Below the pieces are notes generated by a model. It ran no database searches and was not told the origin of the DNA. It saw only the letters and a list, made by a program, of their open reading frames with translations. Made by a program: the position numbers and the translations under genes. DNA of 24,000 nt from Longimonas halophila (GTDB taxonomy: Bacteria; Bacteroidota; Rhodothermia; Rhodothermales; Salinibacteraceae): positions 40,106-64,105 of the forward strand of contig NZ_PDEP01000008.1 in assembly GCF_002554705.1 (NCBI RefSeq). Reading direction: 5' to 3'. Of this stretch, positions 4,049-23,151 are shown in pieces (the first letter of the stretch is position 1; every line of letters begins with the position of its first letter).

Positions 4049-4420
4049 AGGGCTGTGGGTGGGTGTGGGAAAAACGAACGAATGGAATATAACATGCTAA
4101 CTTTCGGGCGGGGTTGCAACCGCTTCCAGCGGGATTTCTGGGGAATTGAAGGGGGCACGTGGTGCTGGGGATGCGCCGTGCTTCGGGGGCATTACCTTCG
4201 GCCCCAGCCTATTGAGGCTGCTCGGAGCGTCCTGATACCGACAGCCGTGGGTAGAGGACGTACTCCTGGGTTGGCCAAAGTAAAAAATCAAGATAGGCTC
4301 TCAGGCTTTTGATGAGCGTACCTGCATCCCCGAGTGCTTGCGGAGGCAGAGCCTCCTGGTTGGGCGTCACAAGGCAGAGCCTTGCGACGAGTGGAGCGGG
4401 CGTTGGGAGAAGCTTTCGAG

Positions 4421-4633
4421 TCAAGTCATCCCGGACTTGATCCGGGATCCAGGAGATGCTGAGGACGCAAGCATTGTGCTGAACGTGGAGGAGATCCTTC
4501 GACTCTGCAGATGCTTGGCGCATCTGCGGCGCTCAGGATGACATCATGGTGGTGGGGAGGTACAGTATTGAAAGCAAGCCCCCAACCCGCTCCCCTGGAG
4601 AGGGGAGCTGTCGCGCAAGCGACTGAGGGGGGG
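4421..4633 (+). repeat. Composite hairpin-repeat element, copy A (module 1, module 2, module 3)
   Basis: Carries TCATCCCGGACTTGATCCGGGATCC, then GGAGATCCTTCG..GCTCAGGATGACATC, then the GCTCCCCTGGAGAGGGGAGC-TGTCGCGCAAGCGAC twin hairpin. The first 125 nt differ at 4 positions from 10721-10845. Confidence 0.9.
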
Positions 4634-4751
4634 ACGAGCGCCCACAGCCAGCATTTGCACGTTGCAAACAAAGATGCAGAGCTACGTTGCGATGACAGGC
4701 GATATGCGTCTGTACAATGTAGAATAGAGACAAAACAACAGAAACAAACCA

Positions 4752-5132
4752 ATGACTCGTTTTCCCTACGACCGGAATCTGCGTCCGTTGGCTCGGGCAC
4801 TCCGGAAAAACATGACGAAGAGCGAGAGACGTCTGTGGACACATCTGCGACGGAAACAGCGTGGCTACACCTTCAACCAGCAGTTTATCATTGGGCGTTA
4901 CATCGTGGATTTCTATGCGCGTCAGCTGCGTCTGGCGATTGAGGTGGATGGCGTTACGCATGACTATGAACAGGGCGATGGCTCTGACGCGGAACGACAG
5001 CGTGCACTGGAGGCGCTTGGGATCACTATGCTCCGATTTTCTTCAACGCGCATCTTTAAAGATTTGGAGCAGGTGCTGTATGAGATTGATGCTTGCATTG
5101 ATGGCTGTGAGCGTAAAAGAAGAAGTCAGTGA
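4752..5132 (+). CDS. DUF559 endonuclease-domain protein (Vsr-like PD-(D/E)xK fold), divergent paralog
   Basis: 126-aa ORF with the typical DUF559 pattern: LRKNMTKSERRLWTHLR..., ..YIVDFY.., ..LAIEVDG..H, ..ERQRALEALG..MLRF. Confidence 0.85.
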   Translation: MTRFPYDRNLRPLARALRKNMTKSERRLWTHLRRKQRGYTFNQQFIIGRYIVDFYARQLRLAIEVDGVTHDYEQGDGSDAERQRALEALGITMLRFSSTRIFKDLEQVLYEIDACIDGCERKRRSQ

Positions 5133-5163
5133 CTGTAGTGATTTTGTGCTGTGTGTACCAAAC

Positions 5164-5269
5164 ATCCCCCTTAATCCCCCTTCAGCGAAGGGGGAGACAA
5201 GTGGAAGGGCACGGCTTCAAGCTGCTCCCCTGGAGAGGGAAGCTGTCGCATTAGCGACTGAGGGGTGGA
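5164..5269 (+). repeat. Hairpin modules 3' of DUF559 copy 1 (A-like hairpin TCCCCCTTCAGCGAAGGGGGA plus a module 3 twin hairpin)
   Basis: Direct sequence similarity to the module A hairpins at 13010, 13603 and 17470, and to the module 3 copies. Confidence 0.8.
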
Positions 5270-5621
5270 TCTAAAGCAGCATTTCATGTGGAGGGGTCCC
5301 ATGTGGAGGGGCCTCGGCCCGTGAGCCGCCTGCTTCTGCCAGGGAGGAAGCGATGGTCGTAGAGCGCATGCCGTGCCGATGGTGTAGGAGACCTTTCGAC
5401 TCCTACCGACGGCTGTCGGTATGCGCTCAAGGTGACAAAAAGGGGAAAGGGAAGCATGTAAACCCATGGAATGCCTCCGGCGATCATTGAAGCCCGCTAA
5501 ACAGATACGCGGGGAGAAGGACAGGATGAGGGGCCTATTCCGTTCGTTCATGGCGCGTATCCTCGCAAATACATTTTTCGGTAGTCGCTAACACTGAAGT
5601 GATTGGCGTTGTCAGAGGGAC

Positions 5622-5669
5622 GAATGGATCCCGGATCAGCGGCGCCAAGAGCGCCTTGTCCGGTATGAC
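5622..5669 (-). repeat. Expanded module 1 hairpin, inverted orientation
   Basis: GAATGGATCCCGGATCAGCGGCGCCAAGAGCGCCTTGTCCGGTATGAC is close to the reverse complement of 15276-15323. Confidence 0.8.
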
Positions 5670-5880
5670 TGCTTGGGGGGCATCACTTGCGATCTAACAG
5701 CTACCCATTTTTCCTATACATGCCTCGCACGCACTCGTAGCCCTTTCTGTCGCGTGACGCGTTCGCTCAGTGGCTCGGACAGATGGAGCGTGGTGAGCAT
5801 GCGGGAACGGCGTCGAGATTTCTCCCTCCGACAGGGGGTGGGTGTCAGACAGTAGTCGGGAGTTAGGATGACGCTGAAGA

Positions 5881-6044
5881 GTGAGGTCTTGTGCCGAGTG
5901 TGTGGGAGATCCTTCGATGCGGCACCGGCTGTTGCCGCTGCCTTGCTCAGGATGACATCGTGATGGGAGGTACAGTATTGAACGCACGGCCTCAACCCGC
6001 TCCCCTGGAGAGGGGAACTGTCGCGTAAGCGACTGAGGGGTGGA
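5881..6044 (+). repeat. Composite hairpin-repeat element (module 2 plus module 3, no module 1)
   Basis: Carries GGGAGATCCTTCG..GCTCAGGATGACATC, then GGAGGTACAGTATTGAA (shared with copy A), then the twin hairpin. Confidence 0.85.
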
Positions 6045-6246
6045 ATCGGCTACCGCCGCCGCTGAAGATGAGGCGGTGTGCGAAACAAGCGAGCCGATGG
6101 CGCGCCCCGAATCGAATTCGCGGTACAGGAACGCCCTCTGTGTAACATCCACGTGTCATTCATAGCACAGCCTACGCATCCGTCCATATCTTTCATATAT
6201 TTTAGCGTTACACACAGGCCCCTCCACAGACCCGCTGCAACACATC

Positions 6247-8832
6247 ATGACCGTTGTTTACCGTTTTGCTGCCCTGGTAGCGCTTTCGGCGCTGCTGCTT
6301 ACCGGATGTGCCCCGCGTCCGGTGACTGATGACAGTACCGAGGCTGCCTCGGAGCCGACCTCCGACATCGAAGAGGCCGTCGAATCTGCTGAAGAGCTGG
6401 ACGGCCTCTTCACCCTCTACCGTGACACGACCGACGGCTCGCTTCAGATGCTGATCCGCGAGGACCAGCTCGATGGCGAGTATGTCTACTTTACCTTTAC
6501 CGAAGACGGCGCGCCCGTGGCCGGGCACTTTCGCGGCCAGTTTCGGGATAACGAGGTTTTCCGTCTGAAGCGCTACTACGACCGGATTGAGTTTGAACAG
6601 GTAAACACCTCGTTCTACTTCGATCCCGACAACGCCCTGAGCCGCGCCGCCGAGGCCAACATCAGCCCGGCGCGCCTGGCCTCGCAAGAGATCGTGGCGC
6701 AGGATACCACCGATGGCGGACGCTACCTCATCAATGCGGACGAGCTGTTCCTGAGCGAAGCGCTGCATCAGGTGAAGCCGACGCCGTCGCCCGGACAGCC
6801 GCCGACGGCCTTCTCGCTGGGCGGACTCAACAGCAGCAAGACGCGGTATGCGGATGTGCGTAACTATCCCGAAAACACGGACTTCATTGTCAACTACGTC
6901 TACGACAACCCGCAGCCCCTGTCGGGCGGCGGCGATGCGGTGACCGATGCGCGCTCGGTGGGCATTACCGTGCAGCACAGCCTCATTGAGATGCCCGACA
7001 CCGATTACACGCCGCGCTTTGATGACCCGCGCGTGGGCTACTTCATGCAACAGGTCGACAATCAGACCTCCACGAGCGCCACGCCGTATCGTGACCTGAT
7101 TAACCGCTGGCACCTTGAAAAGGAGGATCCCGAAGCGGAGCTTTCTGAGCCGGTCGAACCCATCGTATGGTGGATCGAAAACACCACGCCCGAAGAGATT
7201 CGTCCAACCATTCGCGAGGCCACGCTCGCCTGGAACGAGGCGTTCGAAGCCGCGGGCTTTGAGAACGCCATTGAGGTGAAGGTGCAGCCCGACAGCGCCG
7301 AGTGGGACGCGGGCGACATCCGCTACAACGTGCTGCGGTGGACGTCCTCGCCCACGCCTCCGTTTGGCGGCTACGGACCCAGCTTTGTGAATCCGCACAC
7401 CGGGCAGATCCTGGGTTCCGACATCATGCTGGAGTTTGTGTACCTGACCAACCGCCTCCGCCAGCAGGATCTGTTTGATGCCGCCGCGCTCCCCAGCTGG
7501 GCGCAGCAGTCGCTCGCTGAGATGCAGGCCCACGCTGCCGAATCGGCCTCTGCCAATCACGCCGGATGCGCGCTGGGCACGACCATGCAACAGAATCTGT
7601 TGACGGGCTTGCAGGTGTTGCAGGCGCAGAATGCCTCCGAAATCGAGGTCACCGAATACGTAGAGCAGGGCCTCTACTACCTGATTCTGCACGAGGTGGG
7701 CCACACGCTCGGCCTCAACCACAACATGCAGGCCCACAACCTGCTCTCGCCCGAGGAACTGCAAGATCCCGAGGTCATTGCCGAGCAGGGACTCATCGGT
7801 TCGGTGATGGACTACCCGGCCGTGCATCTGACCGACGATGTGGATACGCAGGAGACGTTCTTCATCGATCGTCCGGGCGCGTATGACACGTGGGCTATCG
7901 AGTTTGGATACGATCCGGACCTCAACGACGAGAATCAGATGCAGGCGCACCTGAACCGCTCCACGGAGCCGGAGCTGGCCTTTGGCAACGACGCCGACGA
8001 CATGCGGAGTCCGGGTAAGGGCATTGACCCGCGCGTGATGATCAATACGATCTCCAGCGACCCGGTCGAATACGCCGAGGGCCGCTTCGATATTCTGTCG
8101 GAGACGATGACCGAGCTGCTCGACAAGTACGACGAATCGGGCGACTCGTATGAGCCGCTCCGCAACGCGTATCTGGTCCTCACCGGCGAGATGGGCAGCA
8201 TGGTGAACTCGGCCTCGCGCTTCATCGGCGGGGTGTACCGCGAACGCGCCATGATCGACCAGCCGGGCGCCACGCAGCCGTTCACGCCCGTGCCGCGCGC
8301 TGAGCAAGAGGCAGCGCTTGATCTACTGCGCACCCACCTGTTCGCGCCGGATGCGTTCGACATCCCGAACGAGATCTACAACCACCTGCAGCAGCAGCGC
8401 CGCGGATTCAACTTCTTCGGCACGACCGAAGACCCGAAAATCCACGCCCGCGCGCTCGCCATGCAGCGGATGGTGCTCGCGCACATTCTGCACCCCACGG
8501 TGCTCACGCGGATGACGGATGCGCGCCTCTACGGCAACGAGTATCCACTTGCCGAGTACATGGATGACCTCACGATGGCCATCTTCGAAGCCGACGCGGA
8601 TGGCGACGTGAACACGTTCCGCCAGAACCTGCAGGTGGAGTACGTGCAGGCGCTTGCCAGCGTGCTGGATGAGGAGGAGAACGACAGCTACGACTACGTG
8701 GCACGCTCCGCCGCCCTGCGCAGCGTGCAGCAGATCAACGACATGATCGACGGCAAGACCGGCATCAACGCCGAAACCGAAGCCCACACCGCGCATCTGC
8801 AACATCTGATCGACGAGGTGCTGGACGCCTAA
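6247..8832 (+). CDS. Zinc-dependent metalloprotease lipoprotein (reprolysin-like, DUF5117/DUF4953-type family as remembered)
   Basis: 861-aa ORF with a lipobox signal peptide (ALLLTGC) and the zincin motif HEVGHTLGLNHN. The composition is highly acidic. Confidence 0.9.
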   Translation: MTVVYRFAALVALSALLLTGCAPRPVTDDSTEAASEPTSDIEEAVESAEELDGLFTLYRDTTDGSLQMLIREDQLDGEYVYFTFTEDGAPVAGHFRGQFRDNEVFRLKRYYDRIEFEQVNTSFYFDPDNALSRAAEANISPARLASQEIVAQDTTDGGRYLINADELFLSEALHQVKPTPSPGQPPTAFSLGGLNSSKTRYADVRNYPENTDFIVNYVYDNPQPLSGGGDAVTDARSVGITVQHSLIEMPDTDYTPRFDDPRVGYFMQQVDNQTSTSATPYRDLINRWHLEKEDPEAELSEPVEPIVWWIENTTPEEIRPTIREATLAWNEAFEAAGFENAIEVKVQPDSAEWDAGDIRYNVLRWTSSPTPPFGGYGPSFVNPHTGQILGSDIMLEFVYLTNRLRQQDLFDAAALPSWAQQSLAEMQAHAAESASANHAGCALGTTMQQNLLTGLQVLQAQNASEIEVTEYVEQGLYYLILHEVGHTLGLNHNMQAHNLLSPEELQDPEVIAEQGLIGSVMDYPAVHLTDDVDTQETFFIDRPGAYDTWAIEFGYDPDLNDENQMQAHLNRSTEPELAFGNDADDMRSPGKGIDPRVMINTISSDPVEYAEGRFDILSETMTELLDKYDESGDSYEPLRNAYLVLTGEMGSMVNSASRFIGGVYRERAMIDQPGATQPFTPVPRAEQEAALDLLRTHLFAPDAFDIPNEIYNHLQQQRRGFNFFGTTEDPKIHARALAMQRMVLAHILHPTVLTRMTDARLYGNEYPLAEYMDDLTMAIFEADADGDVNTFRQNLQVEYVQALASVLDEEENDSYDYVARSAALRSVQQINDMIDGKTGINAETEAHTAHLQHLIDEVLDA

Positions 8833-8860
8833 TGTGCTCCTGTTGGTTCAAACACTACAA

Positions 8861-8900
8861 CGCCCGCTTTCTTCTTCGGAGGGAGGCGGGCGCTTCTTTT
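8861..8900 (+). terminator. Rho-independent terminator of the metalloprotease gene
   Basis: CGCCCGCTTTCTTC-TTCG-GAGGGAGGCGGGCG forms a 14-bp stem (including G-U pairs) with a UUCG loop, followed by CTTCTTTT. Confidence 0.7.
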
Positions 8901-8906
8901 GATACC

Positions 8907-9530
8907 ACTGGAGCCAACGGTCCCCCGTTGGCGCGGCGTCGCGGCCCGAGACGCGTGAACTCGCCCGGGACGTCCGCTACGCTCCCAGTCCCGGGCTACT
9001 GTCGGCGTTCCGTGTCGGAGAAATCAGTAGCGGGGGGGGCGTCCCGCGCACGACGAGGAAGGCCGAGGACGCGAGCGGTGACGACAGTGGTCGGCAGGAC
9101 ACACGCCGGGAACGTCGCTGTGCTCCAGTCCCCGGCTACTACCTTAGGTATCAAGTCCCTTCTCCCGGGGGGAGAAGGACAGGATGAGGGGAATCCCACC
9201 CAGCAAATGGTGCTCACCTTGTGGCAAGGTACAACAGGCATGACCCGTCCCATCTCCCTACGCTCGCCGCAAGGCGCAACCAGCATGACTTACGGGTCTC
9301 CTCTTTGCCTTATGACGCTCCCGTTGAGGGGCTCCGTCCCGTCTGAGCTGTTGAGGATTGTAAGTAGATCCAGGTGGGGCCTCGTGCTAAGCCCGTAGGA
9401 GATCCTTCGGCGCCGCACCGGCTGTCGCCGCTGCTCTGCTCAGGATGACATCATGGTGGTGGGGGATGTGGGGGAAGGCGTAAACCACAAATCGCTCCTC
9501 TGGAGAAGGGAACTGTCGCGAACGCGACGG
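8907..9530 (+). repeat. Hairpin-module array, colinear paralog of 14614-15106
   Basis: Module order: ACTGGAGCCAACGGTCCCCCGTTGG, module 4 (8962-9077), a second CCGGGAACGTC..CCCCGGCTACT unit, GGGGAGAAGGACAGGATGAGGGG, CAAGGCGCAACCAGCATGAC, AGGGGCTCCGTCCCGT, module 2, then degenerate module 3. Confidence 0.85.
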
Positions 9531-9608
9531 ACGCGTGCACGCCTGCAACAAAAAGGTGGAGCACACACAGGGAGTGCTCACCATACGAACGAATAGGCTT
9601 TGGCAGAC

Positions 9609-9632
9609 GTACCATTTCCGTAAACATGGTAC
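9609..9632 (+). promoter_or_regulatory. Inverted repeat GTACCAT-N10-ATGGTAC 22 nt upstream of the DUF433 start codon (candidate operator)
   Basis: Seen directly in the sequence. The position is typical of autoregulated toxin-antitoxin operators. The function is inferred only. Confidence 0.3.
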
Positions 9633-9653
9633 TCCACACGACCCAGACACCCC

Positions 9654-9902
9654 ATGGCTACCATTGCCCATCGCATAGAAGTTGATCCTGAGGTGCATCA
9701 CGGCAAGCCCGTCATTGCAGGCACCCGGGTTCCTGTTCACATGGTGCTTGGCCTCTTGGGAGAAGGGGTCTCTATCAGCGAGATCATCAACGAGTACTAC
9801 GACCACATCACACGTGAGGATGTCTTAGCCTGCATCCGGTACGCCCATACCGTTGTGCAAGAGGAAGAGGTCTATGCCACATCAAAGCCCGCCAGAAAGT
9901 GA
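9654..9902 (+). CDS. DUF433 domain protein (putative antitoxin)
   Basis: 82-aa ORF with the DUF433 pattern: I.VDPEV.HGKPVIAGTRVPV..VL..L..G.S..EI...Y..IT.EDV.A...YA. Confidence 0.85.
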   Translation: MATIAHRIEVDPEVHHGKPVIAGTRVPVHMVLGLLGEGVSISEIINEYYDHITREDVLACIRYAHTVVQEEEVYATSKPARK

Positions 9903-10278: not shown

Positions 10279-10280
10279 AG

Positions 10281-10564
10281 CGGTCGGCACAAAGCACTCG
10301 GCTATGGAAAGCGCCCCCCCAATCAAGTCATCCCGGACTTGATCCGGGATCCAGAAGGTGCTGAGGTCGCAGGCATTGTGCTGAGCGTGTGGGAGATCCT
10401 TCCCCCGACAGTAGTCGGGGCGACGGCGGTCGGACTTTTCGTCTCCGTGGCGCATCTGCGCCGCTCAGGATGACATCGGGGTGGGGGGAGGTTCAGAGGG
10501 GAAGGTGCCCTCCAACCCGCTTCCCTGGAGAGGGAAGCTGTCGCGCCAGCGACTGAAGGGTGGA
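10281..10564 (+). repeat. Composite hairpin-repeat element, copy B (leader, module 1, long-form module 2, module 3)
   Basis: Colinear with 15433-15668, except that the module 1 hairpin is present here and absent there. Confidence 0.9.
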
Positions 10565-10573
10565 TGTGCATGT

Positions 10574-10695
10574 GACGCCCGGGACGTCCGCTACGCTCCC
10601 AGTCCCGGGCTACTGTGGGCTTTCTGTGTCGGAGAAATCAGTAGCGCGGGACTGGCACGTCCCGCGCATGACGAGGAAGGGCGAGGACGCGAGCG
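10574..10695 (+). repeat. Module 4 (about 120-nt triple-hairpin module)
   Basis: GACGCCCGGGACGTCCGCTACGCTCCCAGTCCCGGGCTACTG...CAGTAGCGCGGGACTGGCACGTCCCGCGC...GAGGACGCGAGCG. It is nearly the same as 8962-9077. Confidence 0.9.
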
Positions 10696-10720
10696 AGCCC
10701 TGGCTACGGAAGCACCCTCA

Positions 10721-10925
10721 TCAAGTCATCCCGGACTTGATCCGGGATCCAGGAGATGCTGAGGTCGCAGGCATTGTGCTGAGCGTGGAGGAGATCCTTC
10801 GACTCTGCAGATGCTTGGCGCATCTGCGCCGCTCAGGATGACATCGGGGTGGGGGGGGCGAAGGTGTAAACCCCAACCCGCTTCCCTGGAGAGGGAAGCT
10901 GTCGCGCCAGCGACTGAGGGGTGGA
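10721..10925 (+). repeat. Composite hairpin-repeat element, copy C
   Basis: The same module order as copy A (4421-4633), with 4 differences in the first 125 nt. Confidence 0.9.
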
Positions 10926-11178
10926 TAAAGCTGCCGGAGACGCAACCGACCTTCGAAAGCACTCGGCACAACTCCCCCACCTAAGAGAATCGCCCACCTT
11001 CCCCCTAACCGTCCATCCCTCCACCCATCCATCCCTCCACCCCTGAACCCCGCATCCACACGCAATTCAACGAAACCGCAACGCATCCGTCTGATATATG
11101 ATGCGGCATACGTTGTGCGGTGCATTACACCGTACACAACCACTTCTACTGACCTGCACTCACGCCCGCTCCCACTTT

Positions 11179-12978: not shown

Positions 12979-12988
12979 ACTAACAAAC

Positions 12989-13154
12989 CAACCCCCTCTG
13001 CCTGTCGGCATCTCCCCCTTGACTAAGGGGGAGAGTCTTAAAGTGTATGGTTATTCGGAGCTTATGAGAGCTGCACACTAACGCAACGAACCTCCAAACT
13101 CCCCTCCTACCGGCGCCAGCCGGAAAGGAGGGGTGCCCGAAGGGCGGGGTGGTC
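12989..13154 (+). repeat. Module A' plus module B (left direct repeat flanking DUF559 copy 2)
   Basis: CAACCCCCTCTGCCTGTCGG..CTCCCCCTTGACTAAGGGGGAG..GTGTATGGTTATTCGGAGCTTATG..CCAAACTCCCCTCCTACCGGCGCCAGCCGGAAAGGAGGGG..GGGGTGGTC. It is colinear with 13553-13718. Confidence 0.9.
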
Positions 13155-13188
13155 CCGTGCACCAGCCAAACAAATTGGTCTTGAGCCT

Positions 13189-13545
13189 ATGCGATTACAC
13201 AACCGTAAATCACTGAAGCAACGCCGCAAAGAGCTTCGCAACAGCGCAACACCTGCAGAGGCCCAGTTGTGGAACGCATTGAAGAAACGACAGCTTGCCG
13301 GACGCAAGTTCAGACGACAGCATAGCATCGGACCATACATCGTAGATTTCTACTGTCCAGATGAGCGTCTTGCGATCGAACTGGATGGCGCCTCGCACGA
13401 TGGTCCACTCCGTAGCGAATATGATGCAGAGCGACAGGCGTACTTGGAAGCAAAAGACATTCGTGTCATTCGTTTTGAGAACAAGCAGGTGTTTGAGGAT
13501 CCAGACGGGGTGCTGGCGTACATCGAGAAGCAGTTTCGTGAGTGA
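13189..13545 (+). CDS. DUF559 endonuclease-domain protein (Vsr-like PD-(D/E)xK fold)
   Basis: 118-aa ORF with RKELRNSATPAEAQLWNALK...FRRQHSIGPYIVDFYC...LAIELDG.SH....YDAERQAYLEAKDIRVIRF. About 91% identical (107/118 by eye) to the 17056-17412 product. Confidence 0.9.
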   Translation: MRLHNRKSLKQRRKELRNSATPAEAQLWNALKKRQLAGRKFRRQHSIGPYIVDFYCPDERLAIELDGASHDGPLRSEYDAERQAYLEAKDIRVIRFENKQVFEDPDGVLAYIEKQFRE

Positions 13546-13552
13546 TAGGGAT

Positions 13553-13718
13553 CCAACCCCCTCTGCCTGTCGGGCTTCGCCGAAGGCGTGATCCTGTGGA
13601 CATCTCCCCCTTGGCTAAGGGGGAGAGTTTCGAGGTGTATGTTCATTCGGAGCTTATGGGAACTGAACGCCAAGGCGGCGATCTACCAAACTCCCTTCCT
13701 ACCGGTGTCAGCCGGAAA
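13553..13718 (+). repeat. Module A plus truncated module B (right direct repeat flanking DUF559 copy 2)
   Basis: The same order as 12989-13154, with an extra 28-nt sub-module GCTTCGCCGAAGGCGTGATCCTGTGGA. Module B breaks off after CCGGAAAG. Confidence 0.9.
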
Positions 13719-13795
13719 GATCGCTTCACCCAGCTTCTCCGCGATGACAGGCAGTGCTCGGTTGTTGCTGTGCGGGTCTGGTGTCGGCTCATGAG

Positions 13796-14005
13796 TCAGA
13801 ACGATCCCGGTGTTTTTTTGATGGCCTGCATGACATCACTAATAGAGGCGTCCTGCAGGCGCTCGCGCCGCTCAGCAGTATAATCTCCATCTCCCGTCGT
13901 AAATTGGTGGATAAACCGAGCCGTGTCCGACGGGCCCAATTCACGCGTCAAAACCCGGATGGCTTCTTCATTGATCTGATTCAGTGGTTTGGTGTTAACT
14001 TTCAT
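13796..14005 (-). CDS. Small hypothetical protein (69 aa), possible partner of the adjacent PIN gene
   Basis: ORF MKVNTKPLNQINEEAIRVLTRELG...DYTAERRERLQDASISDVMQAIKK lies in a lower-GC segment on the same strand as the PIN gene and just downstream of it. The family was not firmly recognised. Confidence 0.55.
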   Translation of the reverse strand: MKVNTKPLNQINEEAIRVLTRELGPSDTARFIHQFTTGDGDYTAERRERLQDASISDVMQAIKKTPGSF

Positions 14006-14168
14006 GGTGATACCACCCTGTGGATTATTAGATTGGTTGTGCGTTGTTGTGCGCAGGAGATGTACCCGTTGCGCTCAATGCGTTGCGTAATCCTCGACCC
14101 ATTCTACGGGAGTGAGCACCCGAGTGTCTTGGGTCTTAGAACCTGTTTTGATATGCCGTTAGAGGCGG

Positions 14169-14522
14169 CTAAGGGCCAATCGTAGTGACGCGAGCCGGAC
14201 CATGCACGGCTGCTGCCAGGTGCACGGCATCAACAGCTCCAATTCCCAGCTGTGAGTACTCCCGTGCCTTCTTTTCGACGGATGCTGTAACTTCTATAGT
14301 GTCTGTGGCAAGGGAAAGTACGTCATATGCAAACGCACGGCGTCTGGGATGTGGATTGTTCTCAGTTTCAACAAGCAGTATCTCACTGGAGAGAAGTTCT
14401 ATCTCACCGTTCTCGACGTGTTCAATAATTGCAAGAACAGCCTCCGATTCCAGCGCAATACGAAGCTGGGTCTGGTCATCGAAGGGACGCTGGATAGCAC
14501 ACGTGTCAAGGTAGATCGTCAT
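14169..14522 (-). CDS. PIN-domain (VapC-like) nuclease, apparently C-terminally disrupted
   Basis: N-terminal IYLDTCAI, then ESEAVL and VDAVHLAAA motifs. The ORF stops at ..RVTTIGP*, just where the last conserved acidic motif (TTDD-like) is expected. A different frame continues with a plausible PIN C-terminus down to 14075. Confidence 0.7.
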
Positions 14523-14613
14523 GCCTTGTAAGGTAGCTCTTCAGTAAAGAAGAGAAGATACTTAATTTGGTAGTGGATAGACCTTAAGTGATAGCCCTCT
14601 GATAAAAACGTTG

Positions 14614-15106
14614 ACTGGGGCGAACGGTCCTCCGTTCGTCCGCGCCGGAGACGTCCGCGCCAGTCGGCGCTCCCAGTCTCCGGCTACTGTCATGTTTCCT
14701 ACATCACTTAGCATTGAACCGCTACCCTTAATTTATGTCGTGGGTGTTTACAAAAGCGATTCAATTCAGGTTCTCGTATCCATGACCCGCTCGTCGCAAG
14801 GCACAACCAGCATGACCTGCGGCCCCTCCGCCTTGTGACGGTGCCCTTTAGGGGCTCCGCCCCGTGCATATTGTCGGGGATGCAGAGAAGACTTAGCATA
14901 CGCAGGAGTGTCGACGGCCGAAGGAGAGAGGGGGGATGCCGCACGTGCAGGGACGGCGTGTAGGAGATCCTTCGGCGCTGCACCGGCTGTCGCCGTTGCT
15001 CTGCTCAGGATGACATCATGGTGATGGGGAGGTTCGGAGGAGAAGGCACAACCCCCAACGGCTCCTCTGGGGAGGGGAGCTGTCGCGCAAGCGACTGAGA
15101 GGTGGG
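14614..15106 (+). repeat. Hairpin-module array, colinear paralog of 8907-9530
   Basis: ACTGGGGCGAACGGTCCTCCGTTCG, GGAGACGTCC..CTCCCAGTCTCCGGCTACTGTC, CAAGGCACAACCAGCATGAC, AGGGGCTCCGCCCCGT, module 2 (14963-15017), then module 3 (15061-15095). Confidence 0.85.
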
Positions 15107-15275
15107 CACGTCCCGCACGTGACGAGGAGCGTTGGAAATGCAAGCGAGATTCGGAAGTTTGCGGCAGGGTAGACGCCTGGATCCTGGATCTCCGTTCGCA
15201 AGCTCACTGCGTCCAGGGTGACACCCGAGTGGGGGCATTGAGTATAACATAAAGTTCAGCACCACGTACCAATGT

Positions 15276-15323
15276 GTCATCCCGGACAAGGTGCCCCTGG
15301 CACCGCTGATCCGGGATCCATTC
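15276..15323 (+). repeat. Expanded module 1 hairpin (TCCCGGA-[nested hairpin GGTGCCCCTGGCACC]-TCCGGGA)
   Basis: GTCATCCCGGACAAGGTGCCCCTGGCACCGCTGATCCGGGATCCATTC. An inverted copy lies at 5622-5669. Confidence 0.8.
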
Positions 15324-15432
15324 CCTGGCTAAGGTTGCTTTGCTTACGCTCGTCGCAAGGCACAATCAGCATGACCTATGGCCCCTCTGCCCCGTCCAGA
15401 TACCGCCGGGGATGCAAGCGGTACCGACGACA

Positions 15433-15776
15433 GTGGTCGGCACAGGTTACCCGGCTATGGAGGCGAGTGAAGCGTCGTGCTGAGCGTGTGGGAGATCCTT
15501 CCCCCCGACAGGAGTCTGGGGCGACGGCGGTCGGACTTTTCATCTCTGTGATGCATCTGCGGCGCTCAGGATAACATCATGGTGGGGGGCAGGTTCGGAC
15601 AGGAAGGCACAACCCCCAACCCGCTCCCCTGGAGAGGGGAGCGGTCGCGTCAGCGACTGAGGGGTGGGTGCGCATGCGACGCCCGAGACGTCCTTCCGAC
15701 CGCTGTCGGAATACCCGTCTCAGGCTAACTGTCCCTCAAACGGATATATCAGTAGCGCGGGACCCTCACGCCCACG
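15433..15776 (+). repeat. Composite array (leader, long-form module 2, module 3, degenerate module 4), colinear with 10281-10695
   Basis: Shared blocks: GTGGTCGGCACA..CGGCTATGGA.., GTGCTGAGCGTGTGGGAGATCCTTCCCCCCGACAG..GGCGACGGCGGTCGGACTTTTC..GCATCTGCGGCGCTCAGGATAACATC, the twin hairpin, then GCGCATGCGACGCCCGAGACGTCC. Confidence 0.85.
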
Positions 15777-15834
15777 TCTTCTTATACGGGAAGGCACCAC
15801 GTATCGCATCCCCCAGCACCCCTATTTTCAGTAC

Positions 15835-16899
15835 ATGGACGTTCCGTATCAAACCATCCTCGTCACCGGCGGCTGTGGATTCATTGGGTCGGCCCTCGTG
15901 CGGCATCTGATTCGCACCACCGACGCCCAGGTCGTGAACGTGGATGCGCTCACCTATGCCGGACATCCTTCCACCGTCGCACCGGTCGCGGATTCGGAGC
16001 GCTACACGTTTCTCCAGGCTGACATTGCCGACCGGGAGGCCATGCGGCAGGCGTTCGACACGCACGAGCCCGATGCGGTGATGCACCTGGCGGCAGAGTC
16101 GCATGTGGACCGCTCCATCGACGGCTCGGATGCGTTCTTGCAGACGAACATCGTGGGCACGCACACGCTTCTGGAGGTGACGCGGGCGTATCTGGACGCG
16201 GCGGATGCAGACGATTGGTTTCGGTTTTTGCACGTCTCCACCGATGAGGTGTACGGCGAGCTGGGTGATACGGGGTACTTCACCGAAGAGACGCCCTACG
16301 ACCCACGCTCACCCTACTCGGCCACGAAAGCGGCATCGGATCACCTCGTGCGCGCCTGGCACCACACCTACGGCGTGCCCACGCTCATCACCAACTGCTC
16401 GAATAACTACGGACCCTACCAGTACCCGGAGAAGCTTATGCCGGTGGTGATTCTGAAGGCATTGCAGCAGGAGCCCATTCCGGTCTACGGCACCGGCGAG
16501 AACATACGCGACTGGCTGTTTGTGGAGGACCATGTGCGTGCGCTGTGCCGGGTGCTGGCCGACGGCACCGTCGGCGAAACATACAACATTGGCGGACACA
16601 ACGAGAAGCAGAACATCGACGTTGTTCACGCAATCTGTGACATCTTAGACACCCTGCAGCCGGGGGCGGACTTGTCTTCCTACTGCGATCTCATTACCTT
16701 CGTAACCGATCGTCCCGGCCATGACCACCGCTACGCCATCGACGCCTCGAAGATTGAACGCGACCTGGGCTGGACGCCTGACGAAGACTTCGCAAGTGGC
16801 CTCCAGAAGACCGTTCAGTGGTATCTCGCCCACATCGACTGGTGCGAGACGGTGACGGCCGATACGTATGATCTGGGGCGACTGGGGACGGCGAGTTGA
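15835..16899 (+). CDS. rfbB: dTDP-glucose 4,6-dehydratase
   Basis: [12 protein letters not shown] Rossmann motif, a YSATKAASD catalytic region, and typical RmlB length (354 aa) from ATG 15835. The ORF-track start at 15664 lies inside the repeat array. Confidence 0.92.
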
Positions 16900-16914
16900 T
16901 ATATTTCAAACCTA

Positions 16915-16998
16915 TCCCTTCGGGCTTCGCTGAAGGCATGATTCTCTGGATGTCTCCCCCTTGGAAAAGGGGGAGAAACCCGAAGGGAGAGGGGGTTT
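16915..16998 (+). repeat. Module A variant (left flank of DUF559 copy 3)
   Basis: TCCCTTCGGGCTTCGCTGAAGGCATGATTCTCTGGATGTCTCCCCCTTGGAAAAGGGGGAGAAACCC.. is colinear with 17427-17495. Confidence 0.85.
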
Positions 16999-17055
16999 GA
17001 TCTAATGAGCGGTGATTAAAGCATCCATACCAAAAAAACACGATTGGGGGTGCGC

Positions 17056-17412
17056 ATGAAGTTACACAACCGAAAATCACTGAAGCAACGCCGCAAAGAG
17101 CTCCGCAACAATGCCACACCCGCTGAAGTCCAGTTGTGGAGTGCGCTAAAAAAGAGACAGCTCGCCGGACGCAAGTTCAGACGCCAGCATAGCATTGGGC
17201 CATACATCGTGGATTTCTACTGTCCAGGTGAGCGTCTTGCCGTTGAGTTAGATGGTGCCTCGCACGACGACCCGCTTCGTAGCGAATATGACGCAGAGCG
17301 ACAGACATATTTAGAGGCAAAAGACATTCGTGTCATTCGTTTTGAGAACAAGCAGGTGTTTGAGGATCCAGACGGGGTATTGACATACATTAAAAAGCAG
17401 TTTGATGAGTAA
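17056..17412 (+). CDS. DUF559 endonuclease-domain protein (Vsr-like PD-(D/E)xK fold)
   Basis: 118 aa from ATG 17056, about 91% identical to the 13189-13545 product. The ORF-track start at 17044 is a TTG 4 codons upstream. Confidence 0.9.
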   Translation: MKLHNRKSLKQRRKELRNNATPAEVQLWSALKKRQLAGRKFRRQHSIGPYIVDFYCPGERLAVELDGASHDDPLRSEYDAERQTYLEAKDIRVIRFENKQVFEDPDGVLTYIKKQFDE

Positions 17413-17418
17413 CGTGAA

Positions 17419-17621
17419 CAACCCCCTCTGCCTTTCGGGCTTCGCCGAAGGCGTGATCCTGTGGACATCTCCCCCTTGGCTAAGGGGGAGAGTTTTGCGG
17501 TGTAGGTTACTCCTAAATCATTGAAAACCCAACACCAACGCGACGAACCTCCAAACTCCCCCTCTTACCGGCGATAGCCGGAAAGGAGGGGTGCTCCGAC
17601 AACTGTCGGGGCGGGGTGGTC
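17419..17621 (+). repeat. Module A plus module B (right flank of DUF559 copy 3)
   Basis: CAACCCCCTCTGCCTTTCGGGCTTCGCCGAAGGCGTGATCCTGTGGACATCTCCCCCTTGGCTAAGGGGGAGAG...CCAAACTCCCCCTCTTACCGGCGATAGCCGGAAAGGAGGGGTGCTCCGACAACTGTCGGGGCGGGGTGGTC. Confidence 0.9.
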
Positions 17622-17667
17622 TCAACTTTACGTTGCACACTGATCTTCTCCATACACAATACACTTC

Positions 17668-23065: not shown

Positions 23066-23151
23066 ATAAAAAATACTAGGCATGCAAATGTAAAAAACTT
23101 AGCAAGTACGAAAATATATACACTCGATGGTAATTAGGTAAACCAAAAAGC

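What the first reader, a model, noticed from the sequence alone, without database searches (positions are those of the whole stretch)
4100..17621. About a quarter of the window is a mosaic of hairpin-forming intergenic repeat modules (REP/BIME-like arrays)
Between the credible genes there is about 5.9 kb with no believable ORF: 4049-4751, 5133-6246, 8833-9653, 10279-11178, 12979-13188, 13546-13795, 14523-15834, 16900-17055 and 17413-17667. Most bacterial genomes are about 10-15% non-coding. This DNA is assembled from a small vocabulary of 20-120-nt modules, each able to fold into a stem-loop, that recur in different combinations. Module 1 is TCATCCCGGA-CTTGA-TCCGGGATCC (3 canonical and 2 expanded copies). 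Module 2 is GGAGATCCTTCG-[variable inner hairpin]-GCTCAGGATGACATC (7 canonical and 2 divergent copies). Module 3 is the twin hairpin GCTCCCCTGGAGAGGGGAGC-TGTCGC-NNNN-GCGAC (8 copies). Module 4 is a 120-nt triple hairpin (2 full copies and 2-3 degenerate ones). Other recurring units are CAAGGCACAACCAGCATGAC (3-4 copies), GGGGAGAAGGACAGGATGAGGGG (2 copies), a CCGAC-N4-GTCGG mini-hairpin (5 or more copies), and modules A and B next to the DUF559 genes. Individual modules are present or absent between otherwise colinear copies, so they behave as independent units. From memory, similar motifs are often mistranslated into spurious hypothetical proteins in other GC-rich genomes. I do not know of a described function for them.
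Basis: partly seen in the sequence, partly recalled or inferred. Interest (0 to 1): 0.8.

Follow-up and report, generated by a model that had tools for sequence, protein, structure and literature searches.

The report
Mosaic arrays of hairpin DNA repeats
A quarter of this window from an uncultured salt-loving Rhodothermales bacterium is intergenic DNA built from three kinds of small hairpin repeats; two are known selfish repeat classes, and the third, not described in the literature I could search, brackets small DUF559 nuclease genes in many unrelated genomes.

Summary
About 5.8 kb between 4049 and 17667 has no credible gene, and 41% of it recurs elsewhere in the window, against 0.3% of genic DNA.

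The REP/BIME-like reading holds and can be made more precise.
- **Module 4** is a tail-to-tail pair of GTAG-tagged REPs, like a REPIN.
- **Modules 1 and 2** are one family in opposite orientations. They are CGTC/NGTC-tagged REPs. Module 1 matches the published Ssn-related-motif pattern exactly, the class that includes Neisseria dRS3/NTS.
- **Module 3 and the hairpins beside the DUF559 genes** form a pyrimidine-arm hairpin class. In 80 unrelated DUF559 loci this class flanks the nuclease gene, mostly as inverted repeats. The module-3-type motif gave 74 hits in 220 kb there and none in 1.14 Mb of control DNA.

The modules also occur on other contigs of at least four related genome bins (MAGs). 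They differ between orthologous loci that are 85-90% identical. They start right after an intrinsic terminator, and one copy hosts an IS110 insertion.

The arrays are most likely DNA-level selfish, nuclease-associated repeats, not RNA genes. No partner enzyme other than DUF559 lies in the window. The DUF559-hairpin link is statistical, not biochemical.

The parts
4049..4751 (.). Array 1, between divergent tricorn protease and DUF559a. It holds F6 hairpin 4364-4391(-), M1 4424-4452, M2 4490-4545 and M3 4589-4633.
4424..4452 (+). Module 1 (M1): NGTC-tagged REP / Ssn-related motif, AGTC-ATCCCGGA-CTTGA-TCCGGGAT-CCAG. Identical copies lie at 10326-10354 and 10724-10752. Copies with an inner hairpin in the loop lie at 15275-15320(+) and 5626-5669(-).
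   Evidence: Exact match to the published SRM pattern, 3 hits against 0.21 in shuffles.
4490..4545 (-). Module 2 (M2). On the minus strand it reads TGTC-ATCCTGAGC-[variable inner hairpins]-CGAAGGAT-CTC, with a conserved tandem G.A/A.G in the stem. Other copies lie at 5905-5959, 9398-9452, 10392-10477, 10790-10845, 14963-15017 and 15491-15578. With M1 it forms an inverted dimer with the tags on the outside.
   Evidence: the same frame is widespread elsewhere
4589..4633 (+). Module 3 (M3): twin hairpin plus G box, GCTCCCC-TGGAGA-GGGGAGC-T-GTCGC-NNNN-GCGAC-TGAGGGGTGG. Other copies lie at 5224-5268, 5999-6043, 9494-9538, 10519-10563, 10880-10924, 15061-15105 and 15623-15667.
   Evidence: It is the same motif type that flanks DUF559 genes in unrelated contigs.
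4752..5132 (+). DUF559a, a small Vsr/EDxHD-like nuclease gene. M3 lies 119 nt upstream, and a CCCCCTT..AAGGGGG hairpin followed by M3 lies 33-136 nt downstream.
   Evidence: Pfam DUF559, E = 9.5e-30; flanks
5133..6246 (.). Array 2. It holds P hairpin 5165-5195, M3 5224-5268, a divergent M2 around 5388-5437, expanded M1 5626-5669(-), M2 5905-5959 and M3 5999-6043. From 6058 to 6246 it is the conserved promoter-proximal region of the metalloprotease gene.
8861..8901 (+). Intrinsic terminator of the metalloprotease gene (14-bp stem plus T run). Array 3 starts directly after it.
   Evidence: Synteny with L023 and L024 runs through the terminator and ends at 8895 and 8924.
8902..9653 (.). Array 3. 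It holds GTAG-REP 8964-8999(-), a degenerate (+) partner around 9027-9050, GTAG-REP 9106-9139(-), the CCTTCTCCC hairpin 9158-9178, F6 units 9216-9330, M2 9398-9452 and M3 9494-9538.
10279..11097 (.). Array 4. It holds two composite units (10323-10565 and 10721-10925, M1-M2-M3) separated by a GTAG-REP doublet.
   Evidence: 81% of this spacer is recurrent
10572..10672 (.). Module 4 core: a tail-to-tail (GTAG inside) doublet of GTAG-tagged REPs. One is GTAG-CCCGGGAC..GTCCCGGG at 10578-10613(-). The other is GTAG-CGCGGGAC-tggcac-GTCCCGCG at 10641-10666(+). The two arms are 94% complementary, so the pair can form one long REPIN-like hairpin. Further GTAG units lie at 14645-14687(-) and 15682-15728(-, with TTAG).
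   Evidence: I3, I8; z = -3.4
12979..13188 (+). Upstream flank of DUF559b. It holds P hairpin TCTCCCCCTT-GACT-AAGGGGGAGA at 13011-13034, and F8 (AACT-CCCCTCCT-[inner hairpin]-AGGAGGGG..GGCGGGGTGGT) at 13095-13155.
13189..13545 (+). DUF559b nuclease gene.
   Evidence: Pfam E = 5.8e-34; closest solved structure 3hrl, E = 3.4e-17
13546..13795 (+). Downstream flank of DUF559b. It holds the CCTTCGG-type hairpin at 13566-13590, P hairpin 13603-13626 and a degenerate F8 at 13685-13719.
   Evidence: (D5, D12)
14523..15834 (.). Array 7, between divergent PIN and RmlB. It holds GTAG-REP 14645-14687(-), F6 14788-14860, M2 14963-15017, M3 15061-15105, expanded M1 15275-15320, F6 15347-15400, M2 15491-15578, M3 15623-15667 and a degenerate GTAG-REP 15682-15728(-).
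16900..17043 (+). Upstream flank of DUF559c, with P hairpin at 16953-16976.
17044..17412 (+). DUF559c nuclease gene, between rmlB and rmlA. The same position is occupied in related loci L150 and L151.
17413..17667 (+). Downstream flank of DUF559c, with P hairpin 17468-17491 and F8 17552-17625.

Best explanation
The non-coding quarter of the window is a set of BIME/NIME-like mosaic arrays. They are clusters of short DNA palindromes, each carrying an unpaired tag or box that gives it an orientation.

**Three classes are present.**
2. CGTC/NGTC-tagged REPs. Modules 1 and 2 are one family in opposite orientation, forming dimers with the tags outside. Module 1 is a textbook Ssn-related motif, like Neisseria dRS3/NTS.
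3. A pyrimidine-arm hairpin class. It includes the module 3 twin hairpin with its GAGGGG box, and the CCCCCTT..AAGGGGG and CCCCTCCT..AGGAGGGG hairpins beside the three DUF559 genes. In many unrelated genomes this class brackets DUF559 (Vsr/EDxHD-like) nuclease genes, mostly as inverted repeats.

**How it works: shown.**
- The stems are maintained by compensatory change.
- Units are nested inside each other's loops and duplicated as blocks.
- The arrays fill the space between a gene's terminator and the next promoter.
- They turn over between close relatives, coincide with gene-order breakpoints, and receive an IS110 insertion.

**How it works: inferred.**
- The hairpins form in single-stranded DNA and are bound or cut by small dedicated enzymes. 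By analogy these are a RAYT for the GTAG units and an Ssn GIY-YIG nuclease for the CGTC units, both encoded elsewhere in the genome. The local DUF559 nucleases are the candidates for class 3.
- This lets the repeats spread as selfish DNA and modulates recombination and uptake of the flanking DNA.
For: **Dispersal.**
- M3 lies on about 17 further contigs of four Rhodothermales/Longimonas MAGs, often at contig ends.
- M1/M2 and the GTAG units occur in L002, L008, L009, L017, L018, L022-L024, L026 and L149.

**Turnover.**
- Tricorn and metalloprotease genes are 388 and 486 bp apart in L025 and L026, but 2198 bp apart here.
- The window, L023 and L024 are 85-90% identical in their genes but carry different module sets in the same spacers.

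**Position.**
- Arrays begin right after the conserved intrinsic terminator at 8861-8901 and stop at the conserved promoter-proximal block that starts at 6058.

**GTAG class.**
- GTAG lies 0 nt from an 8-9-bp perfect stem.
- 6 of 8 pairs show compensatory types, with 28 double-change cells against 10.2 in shuffles and 0 of 500 shuffles reaching the score.
- The doublet arms are 94% complementary.

**CGTC class.**
- The GTC tag is invariant, the stem starts A-T then T-A, a C follows the palindrome, and the tail is CCA.
- M1 matches the SRM pattern of PMC11893778, with 3 hits against 0.21 expected.
- The M2 frame occurs in at least 120 IMG/VR contigs, with 152 and 153 of 155 Watson-Crick pairs at the two variable positions against 78 and 90 expected.

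**IS target.**
- In L024 an IS110-family element sits inside an M1 copy.

**DUF559 class.**
- Pyrimidine-arm hairpins occur at 2.07 per kb within 350 nt of 80 DUF559 genes, 0.27 per kb farther away, and 0.066 per kb in 1.14 Mb of control DNA.
- M3-type twin hairpins gave 74 hits, 56 of them within 400 nt of the gene, against 0 in the control.
- Upstream copies are mostly + and downstream copies mostly -. Hairpin 2 covaries through at least 8 different stems.
- A copy near-identical to M3 sits upstream of a DUF559 gene in a 43%-GC contig.
- In L154 a DUF559 gene flanked by 41-nt, 98%-identical inverted repeats sits between fliI and fliJ.
- All 10 such hairpins in the window are intergenic.

**Not a described RNA family.**
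- Rfam gives nothing.
Against: - No RAYT or GIY-YIG/Ssn gene lies in the window or in the roughly 155 kb of related loci I hold. The source genome is not in the genome collection, so genome-wide copy numbers and partner genes are unknown.
- Loops of most GTAG units (6-27 nt) are longer than the canonical 2-5 nt. In relatives the tag is often ATAG or TTAG.
- The window's M1 tag is AGTC, not CGTC. M2 fails the SRM pattern.
- Two arrays lie between divergent genes, whereas published REPs favour unidirectional and convergent gene pairs.
- All M2 and M3 copies here share one orientation, co-directional with most genes. That would also suit an RNA role.
- M3 itself shows almost no covariation within Rhodothermales.
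- In this window the copies flanking DUF559 are direct, not inverted.
- The hairpin copies used for the pair counts were selected for pairing (at least 7 of 8, or at least 6 of 8), which inflates the percentage paired.
- The near-versus-far hairpin contrast compares mostly intergenic DNA with mostly coding DNA. The control loci are also lower in GC than many of the DUF559 loci.
Confidence: 0.75

Rival explanations
1. The modules work mainly as RNA. They would be transcribed hairpins in 3' or intercistronic regions that protect upstream mRNA from exonucleases or attenuate read-through, as E. coli REPs do, or they would be small RNA genes.
For: - All M2, M3, P and F8 copies in the window are co-oriented with the mostly +-strand genes.
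- P and F8 hairpins sit in the rmlB-DUF559-rmlA intercistronic spacers in three genomes.
- G.U-compatible pairs occur in the GTAG stems.
- Di Nocera et al. (PMC3733652) argue that many REPs are transcribed.
Against: - Array 3 starts after a strong conserved intrinsic terminator, and array 2 ends upstream of the conserved promoter block.
- Two arrays lie between divergent genes.
- Units of the same families occur on both strands inside one array.
- Rfam gives no hit, and the modules have no T-run terminator features.
- In M2 the tandem mismatch is G.A/A.G on the tag-bearing strand, which here is antisense to the genes.
- This reading is compatible with the best explanation as a secondary effect.
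Confidence: 0.15
2. The pattern is only local segmental duplication of one ancestral intergenic block, with no dispersed family.
For: - Composite units recur with similar order, and two lie 398 bp apart.
- All copies in the window share one orientation.
Against: - The same modules occur on many other contigs of four related MAGs in other gene contexts.
- M1, M2 frames and M3-type motifs occur in far more distant sequences.
Confidence: 0.03
3. The region is an integron-like cassette array, with small genes separated by attC-type folded recombination sites.
For: - Small selfish genes (three DUF559 genes and two toxin-antitoxin-like pairs) alternate with hairpin repeats in one orientation.
- Their order differs between relatives.
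Against: - There is no integrase in the window.
- No RYYYAAC...GTTRRRY core-site pair occurs in 4049-17667, against 1.9 expected by chance.
- Large housekeeping genes (metalloprotease, ABC transporter, RmlB) lie between the arrays.
Confidence: 0.03
4. Part of the 'non-coding' DNA encodes real small or repetitive proteins.
For: Many ORFs of 80-190 aa overlap the arrays.
Against: - Nine array ORFs have no Pfam hit.
- A search of 5.8 billion proteins with a composite translation found no homologue.
- Copies differ by indels that are not multiples of three, such as the 3- versus 4-nt loop in M3 and inner hairpins that are present or absent.
Confidence: 0.01

Closest known systems
GTAG-tagged REPs, BIMEs and REPINs with their RAYT (TnpA-REP) transposases (E. 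coli, Pseudomonas; PMC3733652, PMC6006769)
   Same: - A GTAG tetranucleotide sits flush with an 8-9-bp G+C-rich stem, and the stem shows compensatory changes.
- Inverted doublets with a conserved spacer can fold into one long hairpin.
- Units cluster in intergenic DNA with alternating orientation and conserved linkers.
   Different: - Loops are long (6-27 nt, up to about 59 nt in relatives) and sometimes hold another hairpin.
- The tag is often ATAG or TTAG in relatives.
- No RAYT gene was seen.
- The host is a Rhodothermales bacterium. The 2013 survey did not report GTAG REPs in Bacteroidetes.
- The units are interleaved with two unrelated repeat classes.
CGTC-tagged REPs, including Neisseria dRS3/NTS in neisserial intergenic mosaic elements, and the Ssn-related motifs (SRM) cut as ssDNA by Ssn GIY-YIG nucleases (PMC3733652, PMC11893778)
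   Same: - There is a GTC tag, a stem that starts with AT, a C immediately after the palindrome, and a CCA/CYRG-like tail.
- M1 fits the published SRM search pattern exactly.
- Units form dimers with the tags outside.
- Units cluster in large mosaic intergenic regions around variable genes.
- An IS110-family element uses a copy as its insertion site. REPs are published as IS targets, and dRS3 as the target of a specific phage recombinase.
   Different: - The window's M1 tag is AGTC.
- M2 has a tandem G.A in the stem and 27-58-nt loops with nested hairpins, and it fails the SRM pattern.
- No Ssn gene was seen.
- Any effect on transformation is untested.
MITEs and solo terminal repeats derived from small autonomous elements; free-standing homing endonuclease genes of the Vsr-like EDxHD family (I-Bth0305I, PMC3239194)
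   Same: - DUF559 shares the Vsr/EDxHD nuclease fold family.
- The genes sit singly between conserved operon genes (rmlB|rmlA, fliI|fliJ, downstream of recJ).
- They are flanked by inverted structured repeats, and gene-less repeat copies are scattered nearby.
   Different: - The proteins are single-domain (about 120 aa) with no NUMOD/HTH DNA-binding region.
- They are not in introns or inteins.
- The flanks are twin hairpins rather than simple terminal inverted repeats.
- No transposition, homing or cleavage has been shown.

Membership tests
GTAG-tagged REP superfamily | GTAG (or a degenerate GTRG/GTGG) tetranucleotide 0-2 nt 5' of the hairpin | tested here: met
   Five window units carry GTAG at distance 0 and one carries TTAG. 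In related loci the counts are GTAG 13, ATAG 11, TTAG 7.
GTAG-tagged REP superfamily | Fully paired basal stem of 6-13 (7-20) bp, kept by complementary changes between subfamilies | tested here: met
   Stems are 8-9 bp, 95.6% of cells are paired, and 6 of 8 pairs show both-side changes; 0 of 500 shuffles reach the score. The copies were pre-selected for at least 7 of 8 pairs.
GTAG-tagged REP superfamily | Short loop (2-5 nt), or a second stem joined by a small bulge | tested here: inconclusive
   Loops are 6, 14, 16, 23 and 27 nt. The 23-nt loop holds a 5-bp inner stem. The 2013 survey does list families with loops up to 27 bp.
GTAG-tagged REP superfamily | Many dispersed extragenic copies per genome | tested here: inconclusive
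   All copies are extragenic and lie on several contigs of four MAGs. The source genome is not available, so no genome-wide count is possible.
GTAG-tagged REP superfamily | A cognate RAYT (HUH Y1 transposase) gene in the genome, often flanked by the REPs | not testable with these tools
   There is none in the window. Whole genomes of this lineage could not be scanned.
REPIN / BIME | REPs in inverted pairs or alternating orientation with conserved spacers, able to form a larger hairpin | tested here: met
   Arms 10599-10615 and 10639-10655 are 94% complementary, and the outer arms are 81% complementary. The minimum-free-energy fold pairs the two REPs, z = -3.4. M1(+) and M2(-) are separated by a conserved 38-nt linker.
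CGTC-tagged REP / Ssn-related motif (SRM) | Match to the published SRM search sequence HGTCWYN(0-2)YYVSBRHN(0-5)WNVSBRGN(0-2)RNCYNB | tested here: met
   M1 gives 3 exact hits in the window against 0.21 in 100 dinucleotide shuffles, plus 4 real hits in related loci. M2 does not match.
CGTC-tagged REP / Ssn-related motif (SRM) | Terminal CGTC tag (TGTC and CCTC variants are allowed) | tested here: inconclusive
   GTC is invariant. The first base gives AGTC 13, TGTC 9, CGTC 8 and GGTC 2 among 32 copies. The window's canonical M1 is AGTC and its M2 is TGTC.
CGTC-tagged REP / Ssn-related motif (SRM) | 8-9-bp stem beginning with complementary A-T then T-A, a loop of 4-5 nt, and a short unpaired tail (consensus CCA) | tested here: met
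   Met for M1: the stem is ATCCCGGA/TCCGGGAT, the loop is CTTGA and the tail is CCA. A-T and T-A are invariant in 32 of 32 copies. M2 keeps the stem base but has a CTC tail and 27-58-nt loops.
CGTC-tagged REP / Ssn-related motif (SRM) | A cognate Ssn (single-domain GIY-YIG, cd10448) gene, usually flanked by the motif | not testable with these tools
   No GIY-YIG gene lies in the window. A GIY-YIG motif scan of all held loci found nothing credible.
Neisserial-type intergenic mosaic element (NIME) | Large intergenic regions in which tagged palindromes are interleaved with other repeat families | tested here: met
   Arrays of 0.7-1.3 kb mix GTAG units, CGTC units, M3 and other hairpins in recurring orders.
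Integron attC array / CALIN | RYYYAAC ... GTTRRRY core sites bracketing each folded site, and an integron integrase nearby | tested here: not met
   There are 0 core-site pairs in 4049-17667 against 1.9 in shuffles, and no integrase.
CRISPR or tandem-repeat array | Regularly spaced direct repeats | tested here: not met
   M3 spacings are 635, 775, 3495, 1025, 361, 4181 and 562 nt. TRF finds no array in the modules.
Any Rfam RNA family | Covariance-model match at the gathering score | tested here: not met
   There are 0 hits at gathering score. Two weak hits (E = 0.18 and 1.2) lie far below threshold.

The most novel reading that the evidence does not exclude
Module 3 and the P and F8 hairpins are the cognate DNA sites, or terminal repeats, of the small DUF559 (Vsr/EDxHD-like) nucleases.

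This would be a third nuclease-hairpin-repeat partnership, so far undescribed in the literature I could search. It would parallel RAYT-REP and Ssn-NTS. In it, a unit of about 0.5 kb (twin hairpin, DUF559 gene, inverted twin hairpin) inserts between housekeeping genes and leaves gene-less twin-hairpin copies (MITE-like or solo sites) that pile up in arrays such as these.
Probability: 0.45. Interest if true: 0.75.

Novelty: new variant of a known kind. Interest (0 to 1): 0.6.

Why it matters
**What is already known.** REP, BIME and NIME elements are common, and only recently did one class gain a biochemical partner (Ssn for NTS, in 2025). CGTC REPs were long said to lack any dedicated enzyme.

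**What this window adds.**
- Three hairpin-repeat classes have co-accumulated in one place.
- It led to a testable association between the very widespread but uncharacterised DUF559 nucleases and a conserved twin-hairpin motif.

**What would follow if DUF559 proteins act on these hairpins.**
- It would explain a large family of 'endonuclease domain-containing' genes scattered in operons across phyla.
- It would explain a class of assembly-breaking repeats.
- It might supply new structure-specific DNA nucleases.

**Practical consequences for genome annotation.**
- These arrays mark rearrangement-prone spacers next to a cell-envelope polysaccharide island.
- They generate many spurious ORFs.

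Tried and rejected
- **Rfam**, at gathering score and at E < 5, gave nothing usable.
- **Exact-pattern scans for M3** did not reveal how widespread the motif is. JGI metagenomes gave 1 hit, IMG/VR gave 0, and the genome collection gave only Rhodothermales MAGs plus 6 chance hits. The wide distribution appeared only through the DUF559 gene.
- **A protein search with a translation of the composite repeat** tested the 'spurious ORF' idea and found no homologue.
- **M3 as a three-way-junction RNA** was rejected. RNAalifold keeps only the two hairpins, and the covariation term is -0.08 kcal/mol.
- **A hammerhead-like reading of CUGA..GAA in M2** was considered from the sequence and dropped. The core does not fit, and Rfam is silent.
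- **DUF559 genes next to M3 in the first set of Rhodothermales loci:** none were found, so M3 copies there are solo.
- **GIY-YIG genes near the widespread M2-type hairpins in IMG/VR contigs:** a motif scan found none credible.
- **A MAFFT alignment of mixed M1/M2 copies** put the 3' arms out of register. I therefore counted pairs on loop-trimmed sequences.
- **Literature searches** for Salinibacter or Rhodothermus REPs and for the raw sequence motifs found nothing relevant.
- **The integron reading** was rejected.

Full report
**1. What is in the window**

- tricorn protease 779-4048(-)
- DUF559a 4752-5132
- a DUF5117/DUF4953 metalloprotease 6247-8832
- a DUF433 gene with a DUF5615/PIN-like partner, 9654-10278
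- an ABC transporter 11098-12978
- DUF559b 13189-13545
- a PIN gene 14169-14522(-), with a small partner ORF 13796-14005(-) that has no Pfam hit
- RmlB 15835-16899
- DUF559c 17044-17412
- RmlA and sugar-modification genes from 17668 onward

The DNA between these genes sums to 5791 nt, which is 24% of the window and 43% of 4049-17667. Nine ORFs inside the arrays have no family hit.

The closest homologue of the metalloprotease (95% aa) comes from a Longimonas sp. MAG. The source is therefore an uncultured Longimonas-like member of the Rhodothermales. Its own genome is not in the genome collection, and only a 3.6-kb Logan contig carries the same protein.

**2.

- 41% of intergenic bases recur elsewhere in the window, against 0.3% of genic bases. 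The figure rises to 58% when related loci are included.
- 'Most of the non-coding DNA' is therefore somewhat generous, but the enrichment is beyond doubt.
- The modules are less independent than described. Seven stretches align as one 180-250-nt composite in fixed order, M1-linker-M2-linker-M3. Differences are confined to which inner hairpins sit in the loops.
- A composite folds better than its shuffles on either strand, z = -3.3 and -3.4.

**3. Not a local curiosity**

- A pattern scan of 185,579 species genomes found M3 on 15 further stretches from four Rhodothermales/Longimonas MAGs, many at contig ends, plus six chance hits in GC-rich genomes.
- A profile search of all held loci raises this to about 30 copies.
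- M1, M2 and the GTAG units occur in the same MAGs.

**4. Turnover and position**

I fetched orthologous loci through homologues of the metalloprotease.
- In the two more distant relatives the tricorn and metalloprotease genes are neighbours, 388 and 486 bp apart. Here they are 2198 bp apart, the extra DNA being DUF559a plus two arrays.
- The window, L023 (90% nt identity in the gene) and L024 (85%) carry different module sets in the same spacers, and their gene order differs.
- Upstream of the metalloprotease, homology among four genomes covers about 190 bp of promoter-proximal sequence and stops exactly at the 3' end of an M3 copy.
- Downstream, a 14-bp-stem intrinsic terminator (8861-8901) is conserved, and the array begins right after it.
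- The arrays therefore occupy the gap between one gene's terminator and the next gene's promoter. None of the modules looks like a terminator.

**5. Module 4 is a doublet of GTAG-tagged REPs**

- Read on the minus strand, four units are GTAG followed at once by an 8-9-bp perfect stem: CCCGGGAC..GTCCCGGG, CCGGAGAC..GTCTCCGG and CCGGGGAC..GTTCCCGG.
- A plus-strand unit, GTAG-CGCGGGAC-tggcac-GTCCCGCG, faces one of them across a conserved 27-nt spacer.
- The two units are 94% complementary to each other, and the minimum-energy fold pairs them into one long hairpin, z = -3.4. That is the REPIN/BIME design.
- Across 20 distinct copies from the window and relatives, 6 of 8 stem pairs show changes on both sides. 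There are 28 double-change cells against 10.2 in shuffles, and 0 of 500 shuffles reach the score.
- Caveat: the copies were pre-selected for pairing.
- These features match the published definition of GTAG REPs (PMC3733652, PMC6006769), except for the longer loops.

**6. Modules 1 and 2 are one family: CGTC-type REPs, or Ssn-related motifs**

- The reverse complement of M2 reads TGTC-ATCCTGAGC...CGAAGGAT-CTC, and M1 reads AGTC-ATCCCGGA-CTTGA-TCCGGGAT-CCA.
- Among 32 copies in Rhodothermales loci, GTC is invariant. The stem always opens A-T then T-A, a C follows the palindrome, and the tail is CCA or CTC.
- Stem positions 5 and 8 switch between Watson-Crick types. M2-type copies keep a tandem G.A/A.G at positions 6-7. 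On the loop-trimmed alignment of 24 distinct copies, 5 of 8 pairs show both-side changes, and 0 of 500 shuffles reach the score.
- These are the defining traits of CGTC-tagged REPs, whose CGTC-1 family includes Neisseria dRS3 (PMC3733652).
- Chenal et al. 2025 (PMC11893778) showed that the oriented dRS3 form, NTS (CGTCATTCCCGCGMAVGCGGGAATCYRG), is bound and cut as single-stranded DNA by the small GIY-YIG nuclease SsnA. They also defined a degenerate Ssn-related-motif pattern.
- M1 matches that pattern exactly, with three hits against 0.21 in shuffles. M2 does not match.
- The M2 frame is nevertheless very widespread. GTCATYCYGAGC-N3-12-CGARGRATC hit at least 120 IMG/VR contigs of 32-68% GC. 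Tags were TGTC in 124 copies and CGTC in 27. The two variable pairs were Watson-Crick in 152 and 153 of 155 copies, against 78 and 90 expected.
- M1(+) and M2(-) form a dimer with the tags outside, the arrangement reported as typical for CGTC REPs.
- In L024 an IS110-family element is inserted inside an M1 copy, reading ATCAAGTCAT | IS | TCATCCCGGACTTGATCCGGGATCC. This fits the published use of REPs as IS targets.

**7. Module 3 and the DUF559-flanking hairpins: the unexpected part**

*Within Rhodothermales.* M3 is almost invariant apart from the loop of its second hairpin, and it shows essentially no covariation. Exact-pattern scans suggested a narrow lineage.

*The DUF559 flanks told a different story.*
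- The three DUF559 genes here, and their homologues in L149-L151, are flanked by two hairpins: TCTCCCCCTT-N4-AAGGGGGAGA (P), and AACT-CCCCTCCT-loop-AGGAGGGG followed by GGGGTGGT (F8).
- The same F8-type motif flanks DUF559 genes of 61-67% identity in unrelated settings. These are downstream of a penicillin-binding protein gene (L152), downstream of recJ (L153), and between fliI and fliJ (L154), where it forms 41-nt, 98%-identical inverted repeats.

*Test on 80 DUF559 loci from IMG/VR* (GC 27-74%).
- Perfect hairpins with an all-pyrimidine 5' arm occur at 2.07 per kb within 350 nt of the gene. The density is 0.27 per kb farther away in the same loci and 0.066 per kb in 1.14 Mb of unrelated IMG/VR loci.
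- 48 loci have at least one such hairpin, and 27 have them on both sides.
- A strict M3-type pattern gave 74 hits in 220 kb, 56 of them within 400 nt of the gene, and none in the 1.14-Mb control. The pattern requires a pyrimidine-arm hairpin, then a 5-7-bp perfect second hairpin, then a G box.
- Upstream copies are mostly in + orientation (33 against 15). Downstream copies are mostly in - orientation (22 against 4). They are therefore inverted repeats with the G box facing the gene.
- The second stem covaries through at least eight different sequences.
- In a 43%-GC contig the upstream copy reads GCTCCCC-GGTCTTA-GGGGAGC-T-GTCGC-TT-GCGAC-TGAGGGGTT. This is M3 in all but the loops.
- Back-to-back twin hairpins without a gene occur about 1.3 kb away in several of these loci.

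*In the window.* All ten pyrimidine-arm hairpins are intergenic, and DUF559a has M3 on both sides.

*What is known about the protein.* DUF559b's closest solved relative is the N. gonorrhoeae 'endonuclease-like protein' 3hrl, E = 3.4e-17. The family belongs with Vsr and the EDxHD homing endonucleases (PMC3424549, PMC3239194). I found no paper that links DUF559 genes to flanking hairpins. That is a limit of the library searched, not proof of novelty.

**8. Mechanism**

*Shown:*
- The hairpins are maintained by compensatory change.
- Units are nested in each other's loops. The CCGAC-N4-GTCGG hairpin sits inside M2, an inner hairpin sits inside expanded M1, and a 27-nt insert sits inside the GTCGCAAGGC..GCCTTGTGAC hairpin.
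- Blocks are duplicated.
- The arrays sit outside transcription units, turn over between close relatives, mark gene-order breakpoints, and attract an IS.

*Inferred from the cited systems:*
- The units fold in single-stranded DNA and are recognised by dedicated enzymes, a RAYT for the GTAG units and an Ssn for the CGTC units.

*Hypothesised from the association found here:*
- DUF559 nucleases act on the M3, P and F8 hairpins, either as ends of a small mobile unit or as cleavage sites in the manner of Ssn and NTS.
- The tandem G.A and the GCGNAGC-type triloop stem of M2-type hairpins favour the tag-bearing strand. From my own knowledge, d(GCGAAGC) is a very stable DNA mini-hairpin. This hints at DNA rather than RNA as the active form.

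**9. Limits**

- No RAYT or Ssn gene was seen, and the source genome could not be scanned.
- The controls for the DUF559 association are not matched for GC content or for coding status.
- Copies used for the pair counts were selected for pairing.
- In this window the copies flanking DUF559 are direct rather than inverted.
- An RNA-level side role, such as mRNA protection in the rml operon spacers, is not excluded.

**10. Verdict**

- The arrays are a new variant of a known kind. They are a Rhodothermales mosaic that combines GTAG REPs, CGTC/SRM repeats and a DUF559-associated twin-hairpin class.
- The third class is the part worth following up.

Noticed in passing
L024:5195-6700: An IS110-family element (DEDD_Tnp_IS110 plus Transposase_20 ORF at 5539-6678) is inserted inside an M1 copy, with TCAT on both junctions. 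This suggests that M1 serves as a specific IS target in a related genome.
   Followed up: partly
L029-L148 (IMG/VR contigs): The M2-type frame, (T/C)GTCATYCYGAGC-GNAG-CGARGRATC, occurs in at least 120 viral or prophage contigs of 32-68% GC, often several per contig, with near-perfect covariation. No GIY-YIG gene was evident nearby, so its partner and function there are unknown.
   Followed up: partly
L154:2374-2946: A unit of about 570 bp sits between fliI and fliJ of an unrelated bacterium. It consists of a DUF559 gene flanked by 41-nt, 98%-identical inverted repeats. The called ORF reads through the right repeat.
   Followed up: partly
window 16900-17667; L150:700-1440; L151:2700-3660: A DUF559 gene occupies the same slot between rmlB and rmlA in three related genomes. 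This copy is therefore old and vertically inherited rather than a recent insertion. In L151 rmlB is split into two ORFs.
   Followed up: partly
L157, L160-L167, L170-L177 and other IMG/VR loci: Many DUF559 hits lie at the very ends of 6-9-kb high-GC (0.70-0.74) 'viral' contigs. This might mean that small integrated elements end at, or integrate next to, the DUF559/twin-hairpin unit.
   Followed up: no
one search hit table: Most close DUF559 homologues are known only from contigs of 0.5-2 kb. This is consistent with flanking repeats that break metagenome assemblies.
   Followed up: no
window 9654-10278 and 13796-14522: Two toxin-antitoxin-like pairs, each bracketed by repeat arrays. One is DUF433 with a DUF5615/PIN-like partner. 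The other is a small ORF (no Pfam hit) with a PIN gene on the minus strand. The DUF433/DUF5615 pair sits at different positions in L023, L024, L149 and L151.
   Followed up: partly
window 22500-23500: G+C drops to 0.37-0.44 in and after the glycosyltransferase gene at the end of the sugar-modification cluster. This is typical of a horizontally exchanged cell-envelope polysaccharide island, and the repeat arrays border that island.
   Followed up: no
window 10950-11060: A C-rich, G-poor tract upstream of the ABC transporter gene. It contains a short tandem repeat (TCCACCCC, 4 copies, 11012-11044) and is unlike the G-rich arrays beside it.
   Followed up: no
window intergenic regions: GGGGTGG occurs 9 times on the + strand of the 5.8 kb of intergenic DNA. 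Its complement occurs once there. GGGGTGG occurs 4 times in the 18.2 kb of genic DNA. It ends M3 and F8 and also recurs in the M2-M3 linker.
   Followed up: partly
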